Shown here one piece after another: positions 36,772 through 40,798 of a stretch of DNA of 64,000 nt; positions within the stretch are counted from its first letter, which is position 1, and every line of letters begins with the position of its first letter. The notes beneath the pieces are model-generated. The model searched no databases and was not told the origin of the DNA. It saw only the letters and a list, made by a program, of their open reading frames with translations. Source of the DNA: a virus. Both the position numbers and the translations under genes were made by a program. Where the stretch lies: positions 60,115 to 124,114 of IMG/VR virus record IMGVR_UViG_3300016476_000174; one strand, given 5' to 3'.

Positions 36772-38967
36772 TTATCTCATATTTTTAAAAGGATTACGTG
36801 GGCCTTTTGAACCCAATGTACTACCTTTAGAGCCACCGATATGTCTAAAGGGGCTCCAATTTAATTTACTAAATTTCTGGGAGTTATCCAAGTTTTCTTT
36901 TGTAACTTCTACACGTTTAGTCAGTCCTCTGTTACTCTGTTGTACCTTTGCAAATGCTATAAGAGCACAAAATGCTACCAAACGGTCAACGTTTAAGCCA
37001 TCTCTGTAGGCTTGCATCTCACGTAACAACATAATATCTGGTATACGTTCTGCACCATATATTGTTTTTACAATATCACCATTTTCTTTTGTCTCATGAT
37101 CTAGCTCTTCTTTTAAAAATTCTATACCATATGATAACACAGTACCCTTAAAGAGTGTACCAACGTTCTTCCAGCCATACTCTTGGAATACATTACGGTT
37201 GGCTCCAATATCTTTTAAGAACAAGATCATATCTTTTGGTACAAGATATCTTTGTTTTTTCTTACTTATCATGTATTGAATAAATAAAGCTACGTTATTT
37301 TCCACAACTGTCCAAGCATTATACCATTCTATAAGAAGCTCTAGTCTTTCATGAGTTTTGTTAAGATCATCAAAACGTCCACACCATGATGCTACAATCA
37401 TGTCACGTTCTATCTCGTTTTTAACTCTACCATTACCATCATCTTTAATGACCTCCACTGGATTCTTATATACGTATATAGAACATAGTGATTCAGATGT
37501 AGTGGTCTTACCTTCCCCAACAGGGTCCACAGAAGCATAATACATCCCAAATGGTGGATCTTTATGTGGTCTTTCGTATACACAGATCACTCCTTCTTTA
37601 TCTTCAGTCTTTTTAGATATAGGAAACTCCATGATAGGAATCTTTCTAGACGGTTTATCTACTATCTTACCTTCAGCATTTCTAGAAAGCTCAATATATT
37701 CTATAGGATATTCTTTATCTTGAATACGTTGCATCTGTTTAGCAACTAAGTGTGGAGGGAACACACTCACTTTACGTGTAGCAAAAGCTTCTTCAATACA
37801 ACGAGGTTGCTGAGAAACAGTAAGTTGATAAGCTGCTGGATCTAAATCCTTCTTCATCTTTTCAAATTCTTTCTCTAAAGCTTCTAAAGCTTCCTCCACC
37901 TTAGAATTACCCCACTGATCTATATAAGGAGGCATAGACCACTGTTCTGGAATAAATAGACCTGTTACAGCAATTGTTCCATCCTTGTCTACAAGATTAC
38001 TTTCCACTCCATAAAAACCATTTTCTTCTGGATGCATGATGTATTCTTTCATTGGCTCACACTGATCCAAGTCACCGACTGATCCAGCTGCAATAAACTG
38101 ACCAGTAATCATATGACCAGATTTTAATGCTGGCTTCATGAAACCATATGTATCATCCATCTTAGGTGCGATACCAGCTTCCTCGTGAAAGAAATAGGTT
38201 ACAGGTCCACCGACACCATGAGTAGGATCTTTTTCAAATGAGTAAAGGTTAATTGTAGATTTTAAACCTTTGTATGTATCACGACCACCTACCCTCACTT
38301 TAATCTGTTGTTGCCATGCCCCCACCTTATCAGGTTCAGCTGGACGATACCAGGCTGTATGTTCATTTAAGAAGTTCTTATACTCATTAAGAAACTTCCA
38401 TGAGCCTTTCTCGTTAATGTAATCTTTTAATGAAGCACCAATCTTTAATACAGCTCCTTCCTCAAACCAATACTGGTTAATCAATTTAGCCATATGGAAA
38501 TAAGAGGATGCTATCTGACGCTTCTTTAGAATAATAGCATGCTTCCAATGTAGTTCGGCTAAATGTTCATATAGAGCCATATGATATTGAGCATCCCTTA
38601 CTTTAGCAAAGTCAAACCTTTTTTCTTCTTTATCATAGATAGGTAAAAAGTTTAACCACATATAATAGTCTCTACTTACATACCATGTCTTACCATCATC
38701 TTTTACAATAATACCATTACGACACTTAAGCTTTTGATCATCCCAGTAGGCAATAAAGTCTTTTGTCTTTACAGGAGCTACACAGTAATATCCTTGTTTC
38801 TGAAACTTACGACCTTCTTCATTAAAGATCTTACTAGTCTCATTAAACTCATACTTACCGGGCTCTTTAAAAATAGATAATAAAAAGTCTCTAAACTCCT
38901 CTCTTGTATAGAAAGTTGTTACATCCCATTGTCCATTTTCATATGTAGGTACTTCCTTAAACATCAA
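36772..38967 (-). CDS. terL: Terminase large subunit
   Basis: LKKRQIASS Walker A variant, FFHEEAG Walker B, SVDP nuclease motif, DRLVA. Confidence 0.9.
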   Translation of the reverse strand: MMFKEVPTYENGQWDVTTFYTREEFRDFLLSIFKEPGKYEFNETSKIFNEEGRKFQKQGYYCVAPVKTKDFIAYWDDQKLKCRNGIIVKDDGKTWYVSRDYYMWLNFLPIYDKEEKRFDFAKVRDAQYHMALYEHLAELHWKHAIILKKRQIASSYFHMAKLINQYWFEEGAVLKIGASLKDYINEKGSWKFLNEYKNFLNEHTAWYRPAEPDKVGAWQQQIKVRVGGRDTYKGLKSTINLYSFEKDPTHGVGGPVTYFFHEEAGIAPKMDDTYGFMKPALKSGHMITGQFIAAGSVGDLDQCEPMKEYIMHPEENGFYGVESNLVDKDGTIAVTGLFIPEQWSMPPYIDQWGNSKVEEALEALEKEFEKMKKDLDPAAYQLTVSQQPRCIEEAFATRKVSVFPPHLVAKQMQRIQDKEYPIEYIELSRNAEGKIVDKPSRKIPIMEFPISKKTEDKEGVICVYERPHKDPPFGMYYASVDPVGEGKTTTSESLCSIYVYKNPVEVIKDDGNGRVKNEIERDMIVASWCGRFDDLNKTHERLELLIEWYNAWTVVENNVALFIQYMISKKKQRYLVPKDMILFLKDIGANRNVFQEYGWKNVGTLFKGTVLSYGIEFLKEELDHETKENGDIVKTIYGAERIPDIMLLREMQAYRDGLNVDRLVAFCALIAFAKVQQSNRGLTKRVEVTKENLDNSQKFSKLNWSPFRHIGGSKGSTLGSKGPRNPFKNMR

Positions 38968-39235: not shown

Positions 39236-39258
39236 AGCTTTAATGTTTAAAAAGTTTG

Positions 39259-39340
39259 TGCCCCATGAGAGACTCGAACTCTCACACCTTACGGAACCAG
39301 ATCCTAAGTCTGGCGTGTCTACCAATTTCACCAACGGGGC
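39259..39340 (-). tRNA. tRNA-Leu (anticodon TAG)
   Basis: GCCCCGT/ATGGGGC acceptor; D loop GAAATTGGTAGAC; CCAGA-CTTAGGA-TCTGG anticodon arm; TTCGAGT T loop; CCA not encoded. Confidence 0.93.
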
Positions 39341-39343
39341 CTT

Positions 39344-39460
39344 ATAGGAAAGCAGAAGATGGGTGCGTGGACATCTGCTTTTACAACTGGCATTTCTAAC
39401 CGATCACGTACAACAGCCCTTTCTACAGTTAAAAGCTGTACGCTATTCCAGTTAACCTAT
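39344..39460 (-). ncRNA. Unknown structured RNA between the tRNA-like gene and tRNA-Leu
   Basis: Nested stems ATAGG/CCTAT, TAACTGG/CCAGTTG, GCGTACAGC/GTTGTACGT, plus AAAGCAGA/TCTGCTTT. Confidence 0.5.
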
Positions 39461-39464
39461 TATG

Positions 39465-39622
39465 CTGTAGAGGATGGACTCGAACCACCAAGTGGACTTT
39501 AGGGGTTACTAGACATGATAGGTGGTCAACCCCAGAGGCTTATACGCTTCTTATCTAGACTTTATCAGTTGCTCCACATCCCCGAGACAGGAGGACACGT
39601 TTGCCAATTTCGTCACTCTACA
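39465..39622 (-). tRNA. tRNA-Asp(GTC)-like RNA with 89-nt variable arm
   Basis: TGTAGAG/CTCTACA acceptor plus G73; D arm ACG-AAATTGGCAAA-CGT; TCCTC-CTGTCTC-GGGGA anticodon arm; GGTGG-TTCGAGT-CCATC T arm. Confidence 0.7.
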
Positions 39623-39627
39623 GTTTT

Positions 39628-40278
39628 CTACTTATTATACTCGTACTCTAATATCTTACCAACAATATCACTACGATGATTTTCTTTAAGTTTAATCCAT
39701 TTAATCTCACTAATCTTTTTAGATAGTTCAATAGCATAAGTTAAACCTGTTACACTATGTTTAGTATCTTGTTGCTCATTATCACCATTAATTATAATCT
39801 TACCTGTTTTACCAAGACGTGTTAGAATAGCAAGCATCTCAGCTTTAGTTAAGTTCTGTGCTTCTTCTACAACAAGAATGTCATCAATAGTTTTACCACG
39901 GATAAACTGCACAGGATAGGCTATGATCTTTTCATCTTTTACCATAGACTGAATCTTCACTTTGTCCGCACACTTTACTAGATTCTCTTGAAAAGCTTCT
40001 AAATAAGGGTTAAACTTCTCATCTAAACTACCTGGAAGAAAACCTAAAGAGTTACCCACTTCTATAGTAGCACGTGTTACAAAAATATGGTCACACTGCT
40101 TTTTGTTTAGGAAATCTAGTGCACTTAATGCACATACTAAACTTTTACCACTACCAGCTCTACCTGTTACAATAACAATCTGGTTATTAATAATTAACTC
40201 CCTTGCTTCCTTTTGTTCAGCATTAAGATTAACATGATACTTAATCTCTTGTTTACGTTCTCTGTTTGGTTCTTTCAT
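39628..40278 (-). CDS. phoH: PhoH-family ATPase
   Basis: GRAGSGKS, LGFLPG, FIRGKT, EEAQN, LTRLG, GDNEQQD, HRS. Confidence 0.92.
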   Translation of the reverse strand: MKEPNRERKQEIKYHVNLNAEQKEARELIINNQIVIVTGRAGSGKSLVCALSALDFLNKKQCDHIFVTRATIEVGNSLGFLPGSLDEKFNPYLEAFQENLVKCADKVKIQSMVKDEKIIAYPVQFIRGKTIDDILVVEEAQNLTKAEMLAILTRLGKTGKIIINGDNEQQDTKHSVTGLTYAIELSKKISEIKWIKLKENHRSDIVGKILEYEYNK

Positions 40279-40285
40279 AATTTTT

Positions 40286-40798
40286 TTATTGGTCATATGC
40301 TAAGTTTTGTCCTCCTCTCACCTGAGACTGCTGCTCATCTTGTAAATCTCTATACGTAGCTTTAAAAGATTGTCTAATCTGATCAAACTTTGCAGCAGCA
40401 TTTATAAGAGCAGTGATGTTTCCATCTCTACCATGTTCAATCTCTGTTGTCTCCATGTATTTACCAAGACGTTCCACCATGCTTTTCATGCCCATATAGG
40501 CACGATAAGTTGGCGTTTGATATAACTTCTCACAAAACTTAATTGCGTCCACTATAGCGTCATCATCAGTGGAAAATTCAGCATCTATCTCTGCAAGTAT
40601 TAACTCTTCTTTATCAGATTCTGGTACATCAAAGAATGGATTTAAATCTGGGTTAGGACATGTCATGTAAAAAACATAAGCATACACTTTCATGTAGTCT
40701 AAAGGATATTCTACAATAATATCACTTAATGTTTTTAATGTATAACAATGTTCACTAGGAACTACTTGTCCATTTTGTATATCAAATAGTCTTACCAT
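40286..40798 (-). CDS. Conserved hypothetical protein upstream of terminase
   Basis: Helical protein ending VRGG; may be packaging-related (unverified). Confidence 0.45.
   Translation of the reverse strand: MVRLFDIQNGQVVPSEHCYTLKTLSDIIVEYPLDYMKVYAYVFYMTCPNPDLNPFFDVPESDKEELILAEIDAEFSTDDDAIVDAIKFCEKLYQTPTYRAYMGMKSMVERLGKYMETTEIEHGRDGNITALINAAAKFDQIRQSFKATYRDLQDEQQSQVRGGQNLAYDQ

What the first reader, a model, noticed from the sequence alone, without database searches (positions are those of the whole stretch)
39465..39622. Giant tRNA-Asp-like RNA: class-II scaffold with an 89-nt, possibly pseudoknotted variable arm
Seen: a complete cloverleaf with GG in the D loop, an A15-U48 pair and a TTCGAGT T loop. 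Asp identity elements are present (GUC anticodon, C38, G73), but position 37 is U and the D arm resembles the adjacent tRNA-Leu. The 89-nt insert is closed by GTGGA/TCCAC and holds a GGGGTT/AACCCC stem whose loop (TATCA, TGTCTAG) is complementary to upstream TGATA and CTAGATA. Established: tRNA-Asp normally has a 4-5 nt variable loop, and bacterial tRNA introns sit in the anticodon loop. T4 and T5 make oversized stable RNAs of unknown function in their tRNA clusters. Inference: an aminoacylatable non-ribosomal RNA, an anticodon-nuclease decoy, or a tRNA scaffold carrying an aptamer or ribozyme.
Basis: partly seen in the sequence, partly recalled or inferred. Interest (0 to 1): 0.8.

Follow-up and report, generated by a model that had tools for sequence, protein, structure and literature searches.

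The report
Phage copy of giant-armed tRNA-like RNA
This lake phage carries a real, conserved 158-base RNA gene shaped like an aspartate tRNA with an 89-base folded side arm; it is a viral copy of an uncatalogued RNA family of Bacteroidota bacteria that looks built to use the tRNA machinery without reading codons.

Summary
On the minus strand, 39622 to 39465, lies a complete cloverleaf with anticodon loop CUGUCUC, G73, U1-A72 and an 89-nt variable region. It is not a chance fold. 43 distinct relatives in related phage contigs keep the scaffold: 99.1% of pair cells pair and 11 of 29 pairs show double changes. Their side arm ranges from 26 to 90 nt.

A model built only from bacterial copies finds the window element end to end (113.8 bits, E 3.7e-33). 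It is therefore the phage copy of a family found in at least 120 Bacteroidota genome contigs. That family is absent from Rfam 15 and from five paper searches. This scan has met the family before on other DNA.

The arm is a nested branched domain: closing stem, GAUAAA/CUAA loop, covarying helix Pa, hairpin Pb, and the invariant motif GGGGUUGACCACC.

Five bacterial carriers all also have a normal tRNA-Asp. U37 and the giant arm argue against decoding, as does loss of U33 or G34 in some members. The five AspRS determinants are present, and U1-A72 is the amidotransferase mark.

Best reading: a processed, probably aspartylated, non-decoding tRNA mimic. Its purpose is unknown. The earlier GatCAB/asparagine idea got only weak support here.

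The parts
39465..39622 (-). Whole tRNA-like RNA gene, 158 nt from U1 to G73 (RNA position i = 39622 - i + 1).
   Evidence: Sequence. Full-length match to covariance model R1, built from bacterial copies only: 113.8 bits, E 3.7e-33.
39616..39622 (-). Acceptor stem, 5' strand UGUAGAG. It pairs with 39466-39472 (CUCUACA). G73 is at 39465.
   Evidence: 300 of 301 cells paired. The search patterns included this stem, so its invariance in the phage set is biased. In bacteria positions 4-7 covary.
39597..39613 (-). D arm: 3-bp stem ACG/CGU with loop AAAUUGGCAAA (class II-like, G18 G19).
   Evidence: Stem pairs AU/GC/UA and CG/UA covary.
39579..39595 (-). Anticodon-like arm: stem UCCUC/GGGGA, loop CUGUCUC at 39584-39590 (GUC, U37, C38).
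   Evidence: The stem covaries while the loop is invariant in 43 of 43 phage sequences. The pattern and the parsing required this loop; the patterns did not.
39573..39577 (-). Arm-closing stem Pv1, 5' strand GUGGA. It pairs with 39492-39496 (UCCAC).
   Evidence: 98.6% of cells paired; two pairs change on both sides (GC/UA/AU and UA/GC).
39560..39572 (-). 5' side of the internal loop, GCAACUGAUAAAG, holding the family-wide GAUAAA motif. The 3' side is 39497-39508, UAACCCCUAAAG, holding the CUAA motif.
   Evidence: Conserved in phage type I arms and in bacterial copies. Aligned to the model consensus.
39552..39558 (-). Helix Pa, 5' strand (RNA 65-71, CUAGAUA). It pairs with 39509-39515 (RNA 108-114, UGUCUAG).
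   Evidence: 104 of 105 inner cells pair across 15 aligned phage and bacterial arms, with several pair types per column; slid controls are far lower.
39534..39551 (-). Hairpin Pb (AGAAGC GUAUAA GCCUCU, with one A.C mismatch).
   Evidence: A hairpin is predicted at this place in 15 of 18 arms with unrelated sequences. The nearest relative changes A-U to G-C.
39521..39533 (-). Invariant motif GGGGUUGACCACC (Pc), probably a small hairpin or contact site.
   Evidence: G[UA][UA]GACCAC is present in 50 of 128 bacterial and 42 of 48 other viral distinct copies, and in all large-armed phoH-linked variants. No covarying partner was found.
39473..39489 (-). T arm GGUGG UUCGAGU CCAUC.
   Evidence: 100% of cells paired; two pairs change on both sides.
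39628..40296 (-). phoH-like ATPase gene. Its stop codon lies 5 nt upstream of the RNA. This is context only.
   Evidence: Pfam PF02562, E 1.9e-49. The RNA follows phoH in 27 of 80 related loci.

Best explanation
The element is the phage-borne copy of a phylum-wide, uncatalogued RNA of Bacteroidota: a complete tRNA cloverleaf with a large branched domain grafted where the variable arm sits.

Shown here:
- It is a conserved gene under selection for the tRNA fold.
- It belongs to the bacterial family.
- Its arm is a nested structure: Pv1, then the GAUAAA/CUAA loop, then helix Pa enclosing hairpin Pb and the motif GGGGUUGACCACC.
- Insertions occur only at places that leave the tRNA L-shape intact (variable arm and D loop).

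Inferred:
- It is transcribed after phoH, cut out by the host's RNase P and 3'-end enzymes, and given CCA by the host.
- The host aspartyl-tRNA synthetase recognises it through G73, G34, U35, C36 and C38, and probably charges it.
- It stays out of decoding because of U37, the huge arm and its non-tRNA-Asp acceptor end.
- U1-A72 is the mark that lets the amidotransferase GatCAB act on tRNA-Asn. A charged form could therefore be turned into an asparaginyl-RNA.
- The invariant loop and arm motifs bind a partner that is still unknown.

The phage would use its own, elaborated copy to feed or disturb this host pathway during infection. What the pathway is for remains open.
For: Fold and conservation. 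43 distinct phage homologues: 99.1% of 1179 cells paired, 11 of 29 pairs with double changes, 0 of 500 shuffles as high. 45 bacterial copies: 99.5% paired.

Membership. The bacteria-only model hits 39465-39622 at 113.8 bits, E 3.7e-33, against 38.9 bits for the neighbouring tRNA-Leu.

Acceptor end. In 128 distinct bacterial copies U1-A72 is found in 127, and G2-C71, U3-A70 and G73 in all 128, while positions 4-7 vary. This points to an enzyme that reads the acceptor end.

Identity. All five strong Asp determinants (G73, G34, U35, C36, C38) are present; U1-A72 is the amidation determinant (PMC9976931, sections 29 and 48 read).

ARAGORN calls the 95-nt relative tRNA-Asp.

Not the cell's tRNA-Asp. 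5 of 5 carrier genomes also hold a class I tRNA-Asp with G1-C72, loop CUGUCAC and a 5-nt variable loop.

Against decoding. U37 is found in all 43; bacterial variants have C33, G33, or U, A or C at position 34.

The phage has none of the enzymes tested (Asn synthase, AsnC, class IIb synthetase, TGT), so it must rely on the host.

RNA-library contigs cover part of the element: a 35-nt contig of depth 198 at 39580-39611. This is a hint only.
Against: - No experiment or read end shows processing, CCA addition or charging. The RNA data are contigs without ends, and DNA can be present in such libraries.
- G1-C72, which helps place the 3' end in E. coli AspRS (PMC9976931, section 29), is replaced by U1-A72. 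G10 is A10. Either could lower aspartylation. The first position of the stem is stated from my own reading of the sequence.
- Some bacterial members lack G34, so a strict Asp identity is not universal in the family.
- The link to GatCAB has little power. GatB is found in 44 of 45 RNA-positive genomes but also in 298 of 356 RNA-negative ones, with no correction for relatedness.
- 5 of 5 carriers have AsnRS, and 4 of 5 have an AsnB-type synthetase above the curated cut-off. No need for an extra asparagine route is visible.
- No phage benefit has been shown.
Confidence: 0.45

Rival explanations
1. Asparagine-making carrier. The RNA is aspartylated, and GatCAB then converts Asp to Asn on it, away from the ribosome. 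This supplies or senses asparagine, and the phage boosts that supply. This was the reading of earlier agents of this scan.
For: It carries the five Asp determinants together with the U1-A72 amidation determinant. An Lrp/AsnC-family regulator gene lies divergently beside the RNA gene in 74 of 120 bacterial loci, and all 75 such ORFs are in 5'-to-5' orientation. GatB is found in 44 of 45 RNA-positive genomes. A few members carry Glu-type loops (UUC, CUC), which would suit the parallel Glu to Gln reaction.
Against: GatB is in 342 of 401 sampled Bacteroidota genomes, so the co-occurrence says little, and one RNA-positive genome shows no GatB. AsnRS is present in 5 of 5 carriers and AsnB-type synthetase in 4 of 5. 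The effector of the Lrp/AsnC-family regulator is unknown, and SufB lies nearby in 38 of 120 loci. The phage has no related enzyme.
Confidence: 0.2
2. Sponge or decoy. The RNA binds and titrates a protein that reads the tRNA-Asp anticodon loop: AspRS, queuine transglycosylase, or an anticodon nuclease of a defence system. It is never used as a carrier.
For: The loop CUGUCUC is invariant while its stem covaries. 23 of the 26 phage variants with a D-loop insertion display a second UGUCUC in that hairpin's loop, and the hairpin stem covaries (UGGC/GCCA against GGGU/ACCC). Anticodon-loop mimics that bind AspRS are known in yeast AspRS mRNA (PMC9976931, passage).
Against: The top of the acceptor stem and G73 are as conserved as the loop, which a loop decoy does not need. 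The bacterial copies are chromosomal, often tandem, and paired with a regulator gene. The 23 variants are close relatives and so amount to few independent events. 3 of 26 lack the second motif.
Confidence: 0.15
3. A working, if odd, decoding tRNA-Asp that the phage supplies for its GAU and GAC codons.
For: ARAGORN calls the 95-nt variant tRNA-Asp(gtc). The identity set is complete. Asp makes up 6.0% of codons, with 1700 GAT and 465 GAC. A tRNA-Leu gene lies in the same intergenic region, and other tRNA genes lie in relatives. Engineered tRNAs with aptamer hairpins on the variable arm remain active in E. coli (PMC7590224, abstract). Class II tRNAs with non-Leu/Ser anticodons can decode (nev-tRNAs, PMC3333845, abstract).
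Against: A pyrimidine at position 37 in 43 of 43. Arms of 26-90 nt. U1-A72 in place of the G1-C72 that is strictly conserved in bacterial tRNA-Asp. Bacterial members exist without U33 or G34. Carriers already have canonical tRNA-Asp genes, up to 8 copies. The Rfam tRNA model misses even the short form.
Confidence: 0.1
4. Only a cis-acting processing signal: a tRNA-shaped punctuation mark that lets RNase P separate the phoH transcript from the late genes.
For: It begins 5 nt after the phoH stop and sits between phoH and the large downstream ORFs in 27 of 80 related loci.
Against: Sequence-invariant loop, acceptor top and arm motifs go far beyond what RNase P needs. The bacterial copies are stand-alone genes followed by hairpin-plus-U-run terminator-like sequences (read by eye). 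53 of the 80 phoH relatives do without it.
Confidence: 0.07

Closest known systems
Canonical bacterial tRNA-Asp(GUC)
   Same: Cloverleaf; loop C32 U33 G34 U35 C36 and C38; G2-C71; G73; normal T loop. The five strong Asp determinants are all present (PMC9976931, section 29).
   Different: U37 instead of A37. U1-A72 instead of G1-C72. A 3-bp class II D arm. An 89-nt branched arm instead of a 5-nt loop. It coexists with the real tRNA-Asp in bacterial carriers. tRNA finders do not detect it.
Bacterial class II tRNAs (tRNA-Leu, tRNA-Ser, tRNA-Tyr), including the neighbouring phage tRNA-Leu(UAG)
   Same: A 3-bp D stem, D loop AAAUUGGYARA, and an extra arm that starts one base after the anticodon stem. 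The family model scores the tRNA-Leu at 38.9 bits.
   Different: Asp-type anticodon loop. G73, whereas tRNA-Leu and tRNA-Tyr have A73 (recalled). The arm is several times longer, is branched, and carries conserved internal-loop and hairpin motifs.
tRNA-Asn as substrate of non-discriminating AspRS plus GatCAB (transamidosome)
   Same: U1-A72 and G73. Would be aspartylated first and could then be amidated (PMC9976931, section 48).
   Different: Anticodon GUC, not GUU, so even a discriminating AspRS should accept it. It apparently does not decode. 5 of 5 carriers tested have AsnRS.
nev-tRNAs of nematodes and allo-tRNAs (class II bodies with mismatched anticodons)
   Same: A long-armed tRNA body combined with an anticodon that does not belong to it (PMC3333845, abstract; PMC5389517, search listing only).
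   Different: Those have ordinary-sized arms and a purine at position 37 (recalled), and were shown to decode. This family has a giant structured arm and U37, and is found in bacteria and their phages.
tRNA mimics such as tmRNA and bacterial Y RNA (YrlA)
   Same: A tRNA-like module fused to a large extra domain; some are phage-encoded (PMC4201824, search listing only).
   Different: Those lack a normal anticodon arm and place the extra domain there. Here all four arms are intact and the addition sits in the variable arm. No Rfam match to either family.

Membership tests
Giant-armed Asp-type tRNA-like RNA of Bacteroidota and their phages (uncatalogued; defined here by model R1) | Full-length significant match to a covariance model built from bacterial members only | tested here: met
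   113.8 bits, E 3.7e-33, model positions 1-149 of 149, ends exactly at 39622 and 39465.
Giant-armed Asp-type tRNA-like RNA of Bacteroidota and their phages (uncatalogued; defined here by model R1) | Acceptor end U1-A72, G2-C71, U3-A70, with discriminator G73 | tested here: met
   The window has all four. Family frequencies are 127, 128, 128 and 128 of 128 bacterial copies; U1-A72 in 44 and G73 in 47 of 48 other viral copies.
Giant-armed Asp-type tRNA-like RNA of Bacteroidota and their phages (uncatalogued; defined here by model R1) | 7-nt loop ending UCUC (mostly CUGUCUC) on a 5-bp stem; class II D arm with AAAUUGGCARA | tested here: met
Giant-armed Asp-type tRNA-like RNA of Bacteroidota and their phages (uncatalogued; defined here by model R1) | Variable region replaced by a domain closed by a 4-5 bp stem, with a GAUAAA / CUAA internal loop | tested here: met
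   The window's GAUAAAG and CUAAAG align to the model consensus. Bacterial arms are 39-123 nt.
Giant-armed Asp-type tRNA-like RNA of Bacteroidota and their phages (uncatalogued; defined here by model R1) | Divergent Lrp/AsnC-family regulator gene beside it (a trait of the bacterial copies) | tested here: not met
   No AsnC domain in the phage record. In bacteria it is found in 74 of 120 loci. This is a context trait of chromosomal copies, not of the RNA itself.
Decoding bacterial tRNA-Asp | Recognised by tRNA gene finders or the Rfam tRNA model | tested here: not met
   ARAGORN (also with -i) and Rfam find nothing at 39465-39622. Only the 95-nt relative is called, by ARAGORN, and not by Rfam.
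Decoding bacterial tRNA-Asp | Purine at position 37, G1-C72, and a 4-5 nt variable loop | tested here: not met
   U37, U1-A72 and 89 nt. Canonical copies in carrier genomes have A37, G1-C72 and 5 nt.
Decoding bacterial tRNA-Asp | Asp identity set G73, G34, U35, C36, C38 | tested here: met
   Sequence, checked against PMC9976931, section 29.
Decoding bacterial tRNA-Asp | Aminoacylation with Asp and use on the ribosome | not testable with these tools
   Needs charging and ribosome-association assays.
Class II tRNA (Leu, Ser, Tyr) | Anticodon of Leu, Ser or Tyr, and an unbranched extra arm of roughly 10-25 nt | tested here: not met
   Anticodon GUC; an 89-nt branched arm. The arm-length range is recalled.
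GatCAB substrate (tRNA-Asn type) | U1-A72 present; antideterminants G1-C72 and U20a absent | tested here: inconclusive
   U1-A72 is present and G1-C72 absent. The class II D loop cannot be numbered unambiguously for U20a. The rule is taken from PMC9976931, section 48.
Intron-containing tRNA | The insert interrupts the anticodon loop or has group I/II features and is removed | tested here: not met
   The insert lies in the variable region. ARAGORN -i finds nothing. No intron family in Rfam matches. The insert has its own conserved motifs and covariation. Splicing itself cannot be tested here.

The most novel reading that the evidence does not exclude
A new class of aminoacyl carrier. It would be a tRNA that evolved off the ribosome, be charged by AspRS and possibly amidated by GatCAB, and use its branched arm to dock a dedicated partner: an enzyme that takes the amino acid, or the neighbouring Lrp/AsnC-type regulator as a read-out of charging. 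Phages of Bacteroidota would have captured it and elaborated it, with arms growing from 26 to 90 nt and a second anticodon-like loop in the D loop, in order to rewire host amino-acid or synthetase homeostasis during infection.
Probability: 0.2. Interest if true: 0.9.

Novelty: new variant of a known kind. Interest (0 to 1): 0.72.

Why it matters
If the family works as the sequence suggests, it adds a new kind of tRNA-derived molecule: a full cloverleaf kept for the tRNA enzymes but withdrawn from decoding, and carrying a modular RNA domain.

It is common. It also occurs in 45 of 401 sampled genomes under a strict pattern. It appears in no catalogue or paper that I could find.

The phage series in this lineage shows stepwise growth of the arm on a fixed scaffold. 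That is a natural experiment in how far a tRNA can be extended. Phage capture suggests the RNA matters during infection.

It also warns annotators. tRNA finders miss it, or call the short forms tRNA-Asp.

Tried and rejected
- **Single-sequence folding.** The energy is no better than shuffles (z = 0.08).
- **Named phage collection.** No relative of the element (blastn) or of 12 kb around it (megablast).
- **GACCACC pairing with the T-stem strand GGUGG.** Rejected. The T stem changes to GGAGG or GCUGG in L106, L179 and L096 with no matching change in the motif.
- **GACCACC pairing with the 5' strand of the arm-closing stem.** Rejected. GAGGA/UCCUC variants keep the motif.
- **GAC in the motif pairing with the GUC anticodon.** Possible on paper (AGAC:GUCU in type II arms). 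The short-armed variants lack the motif and nothing covaries, so this stays an idea only.
- **Palindromes after the motif in some variants** (GCUUGCAAGC, ACUGCAGU, GUGCAC, GCUAGC). They might mean loop-loop dimerisation. They are absent from the window's own variant and were not pursued.
- **Complement of the loop (GAGACAG) in the phage genome.** 3 seen, 3.3 expected.
- **Hammerhead or kink-turn reading of CUGAUAAAG.** By eye only; no Rfam support.
- **Intron.** ARAGORN -i finds none.
- **RNA-library contigs.** The arm (39496-39569) has no cover in the three RNA runs. Contigs cannot show ends or strand, so nothing is concluded from that.
- **GatB co-occurrence.** Real but uninformative, given an 85% background.
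- **AsnA.** Not searched.
- **Companion RNA.** No clear bacterial counterpart seen by eye downstream of the bacterial copies.
- **Supplementary files of papers.** None were opened; they may hold sRNA lists of Bacteroidota that name this RNA.
Full report
**What is there**

The feature lies on the minus strand. It starts 5 nt after the stop codon of a phoH-like gene (39628-40296; Pfam PhoH, E 1.9e-49). Read 5' to 3' from 39622 to 39465 it gives the following:
- acceptor UGUAGAG/CUCUACA;
- U8 G9;
- a 3-bp D stem with loop AAAUUGGCAAA;
- anticodon stem UCCUC/GGGGA with loop CUGUCUC;
- one free U;
- an 89-nt region closed by GUGGA/UCCAC;
- UU;
- T arm GGUGG UUCGAGU CCAUC;
- G73.

No CCA is encoded. 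ARAGORN (with or without introns) and Rfam at E up to 10 report only the neighbouring tRNA-Leu(UAG) at 39258-39340. The folding energy of the single sequence is no better than shuffles (z = 0.08).

**Is it real?**

The window lies in a 124,114-base virus record estimated 96% complete. Earlier notes of this scan call it crAss-like; I did not test that.

I searched viral contigs with the PhoH protein and got 80 related loci. 27 of them carry the element directly after phoH; the other 53 show no match at blastn E up to 1e-3. Pattern scans added more. In all there are 43 distinct sequences.

On their alignment the cloverleaf, the arm-closing stem and a D-loop hairpin behave as follows:
- 99.1% of 1179 cells pair;
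- 11 of 29 pairs change on both sides;
- 0 of 500 shuffles reach the observed values for four of the five measures (30 of 500 reach the number of further pair types);
- slid controls give 39-56%.

One caution applies. One search pattern contained the 5' acceptor strand, another the T loop and 3' acceptor strand, and the pattern also contained the loop. The invariance of those parts within this set is therefore partly built in.

**A growing arm on a fixed scaffold**

Within this phage lineage the variable region is 26, 41, 48, 73-76 or 79-90 nt long.

The shortest form has a 95-nt RNA with a 5-bp arm stem and a 13-nt loop. ARAGORN calls it tRNA-Asp(gtc), but the Rfam tRNA model does not.

There are two arm types:
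- Type I, which includes the window: GUGGA, a few bases, CUGAUAAAG, an insert, CCUAAAG, UCCAC.
- Type II: GGUGA, GAAAUAG, an insert, UUGAAUC, UCACC.

26 type II variants also have a hairpin inserted in the D loop. Its stem covaries (UGGC/GCCA against GGGU/ACCC). In 23 of the 26 its loop repeats UGUCUC, the core of the anticodon loop. All insertions sit where a tRNA can bear them without losing its L-shape. That last point is inference from tRNA architecture.

**The fold of the arm**

I took 18 distinct arms that share the motif GG[GA][UA]UGACCACC: 5 from this phage lineage, 11 bacterial and 2 from other viral contigs. Results:
- Helix Pa pairs in 111 of 120 cells. Its seven inner pairs pair in 104 of 105 cells, with up to five pair types per column. 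Slid controls are much lower.
- A hairpin Pb is predicted at the same place in 15 of 18 arms, with unrelated sequences.

In the window:
- Pa is RNA 65-71 with 108-114;
- Pb is RNA 72-89;
- the motif is RNA 90-102.

It is missing from the closest relative and from all others. It is therefore lineage-specific at best, and the pseudoknot is not supported. UGAUA is part of the GAUAAA motif, which is kept even in the 26-nt arm, where it has no partner.

**The turn: it is a bacterial family**

A pattern covering only the D loop and the anticodon arm matched at least 120 further viral contigs and at least 120 cellular genome contigs.

All listed genome titles are Bacteroidota: Cytophagales, Cyclobacteriaceae, Saprospiraceae, Flavobacteriales, Chitinophagales and a few Bacteroidaceae. 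Copies are often tandem; one chromosome has five copies 172 nt apart. ARAGORN finds none of them in 10 loci, and Rfam finds none.

Parsed copies show the following:

| Set | Distinct copies | U1-A72 | G2-C71 | U3-A70 | G73 | Arm length |
|---|---|---|---|---|---|---|
| Bacterial | 128 | 127 | 128 | 128 | 128 | 39-123 nt |
| Other viral | 48 | 44 | 47 | 45 | 47 | 24-160 nt |

45 bacterial copies pair in 99.5% of cells, and positions 4-7 of the acceptor stem covary.

A covariance model built from those 45 bacterial sequences alone finds the window element end to end at 113.8 bits, E 3.7e-33. The tRNA-Leu comes second at 38.9 bits. Membership is thus tested and met.

By blastn score the nearest bacterial copies are from Flectobacillus, Arcicella and a Roseivirgaceae genome. 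This is a weak hint at the host.

After finding this, I learned from the scan's notebook that the family has been met many times before on other DNA.

**Context in bacteria**

- In 74 of 120 loci an Lrp/AsnC-family regulator gene (PF01037 plus PF13404) lies within 1.5 kb. It is always divergent, 5' end to 5' end (75 of 75 ORFs), mostly 140-230 nt away.
- SufB is nearby in 38 of 120 loci.
- Most copies are followed by hairpin-plus-U-run terminator-like sequences (read by eye).

**Tests of function**

(a) It is not the cell's tRNA-Asp. 5 of 5 carrier genomes also have class I tRNA-Asp genes with G1-C72, loop CUGUCAC, a 5-nt variable loop and G73.

(b) It is not built for decoding. U37 is found in 43 of 43 phage sequences. 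Among 401 sampled Bacteroidota genomes, 45 match the pattern with up to two mismatches. Some of those have C33, G33, or U, A or C at position 34, or C37. UCUC at positions 35-38 is the most constant part.

(c) The identity marks are present. The review PMC9976931 (sections 29 and 48 read) makes three relevant statements:
- G73, G34, U35, C36 and C38 are the five strong aspartate determinants.
- G1-C72 and G2-C71 are strictly conserved in bacterial tRNA-Asp.
- U1-A72 is the determinant that lets the amidotransferase act on Asp-tRNA-Asn, with G1-C72 and U20a as antideterminants.

The window RNA has all five determinants, G2-C71 and U1-A72.

(d) The GatCAB link proposed by earlier agents is weak. 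GatB is found in 342 of 401 genomes. It is in 44 of the 45 RNA-positive genomes and in 298 of the 356 others. The association is real but weak, is uncorrected for relatedness, and has one exception.

(e) No need for an extra asparagine route is visible. AsnRS is above its cut-off in 5 of 5 carriers, and an AsnB-type synthetase in 4 of 5.

(f) The phage encodes no Asn synthase, AsnC domain, class IIb synthetase or TGT. The nearby genes are PhoH, a PD-(D/E)XK nuclease, a GNAT and unknowns.

(g) Expression evidence is slight. Only contigs were available. Three metatranscriptome runs hold parts of the region: a 35-nt contig of depth 198 at 39580-39611, and low-depth pieces at 39579-39622 and 39463-39502. 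phoH shows depth 0 to 2.6. This is a hint that the RNA is more abundant than the upstream mRNA, and no more than a hint. No ends, strand or CCA can be read from contigs.

**Reading**

The invariant top of the acceptor stem and the invariant loop point to enzymes that read both ends of a tRNA. Those enzymes are the synthetases and the enzymes that act on aminoacyl-tRNA. The U37, the arm and the coexisting normal tRNA-Asp argue that the product does not go to the ribosome.

I therefore favour a processed, probably aspartylated, non-decoding tRNA mimic whose arm docks an unknown partner (confidence 0.45). Conversion to Asn on the RNA is chemically coherent, but nothing I could measure supports it (0.2). 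The other rivals are:
- a sponge for a protein that reads the loop (0.15);
- a real decoding tRNA (0.1);
- a bare processing signal (0.07).

**Novelty**

I found no Rfam 15 family. Five full-text searches found no paper.

The nearest published things are class II tRNAs with foreign anticodons (nev-tRNAs, PMC3333845, abstract read; allo-tRNAs, PMC5389517, listing only) and engineered aptamer-tagged tRNAs (PMC7590224, abstract read).

Relative to those, this is a new variant of a known kind. This scan has repeatedly found it on other genomes.

Noticed in passing
window 39341-39464 (minus strand): A second conserved RNA lies between the tRNA-like gene and tRNA-Leu. There are 40 distinct variants in related phage loci. 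Helix AACUGG/CCAGUU switches to GACUGG/CCAGUC, an inner hairpin is variable and covarying, GGUUAGAAAUG is invariant, and there is a terminal hairpin. In some loci it occurs without the tRNA-like gene; where read, it lies upstream of the small gene MKQEVYTDY... RNA-library contigs cover 39345-39435 at depths of 36 to 439. No Rfam match.
   Followed up: partly
L003, L004, L013-L018 and 18 further loci (type II variants); for example L175:2189-2358: A hairpin is inserted in the D loop of the tRNA-like RNA. In 23 of 26 variants its loop repeats UGUCUC, the core of the anticodon loop. The stem covaries. None of the 45 aligned bacterial copies has this insertion.
   Followed up: partly
Genome handles G137, G217, G337, G004, G069 and others: Bacterial family members have altered loops: CUUUCUC and CUCUCUC (Glu-type), CUAUCUC, UCGUCUC (C33) and CGGUCUC (G33). 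The shared core is UCUC at positions 35-38.
   Followed up: no
L331:6400-7400 (minus strand): Five tandem copies of the tRNA-like gene lie 172 nt apart in one Persicobacter chromosome. Many other genomes have 2-3 copies.
   Followed up: no
window 39258-39340 (minus strand): tRNA-Leu(UAG) is present only in the window and its nearest relative contig (L002/L111). The other phoH-linked loci go straight from the second RNA to the small gene, so this looks like a recent insertion.
   Followed up: partly
L072:3651-4404, and also L073, L074, L077, L079, L081: More distant phoH relatives carry a different conserved non-coding stretch after phoH, followed by a tRNA-Met(CAT). In L072, L073 and L074 (as read) that tRNA has an unusual 5-bp D arm; in L079 and L081 it looks ordinary. 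L072 also has a tmRNA (Rfam, 80.7 bits).
   Followed up: no
Arms of L003-type, L096, L099, L089 and L179: Just after the GACCAC motif these variants carry different palindromes: GCUUGCAAGC, ACUGCAGU, GUGCAC and GCUAGC. This could be a small UGCA-type hairpin or a self-pairing (dimerising) loop. The window's own variant has none.
   Followed up: no
window 36772-38967 (minus strand): The 731-aa ORF downstream has no Pfam match. In one sub-lineage (L033 group) its homologue starts right after the tRNA-like gene, so the RNA marks the border between the phoH module and the large downstream ORFs.
   Followed up: no
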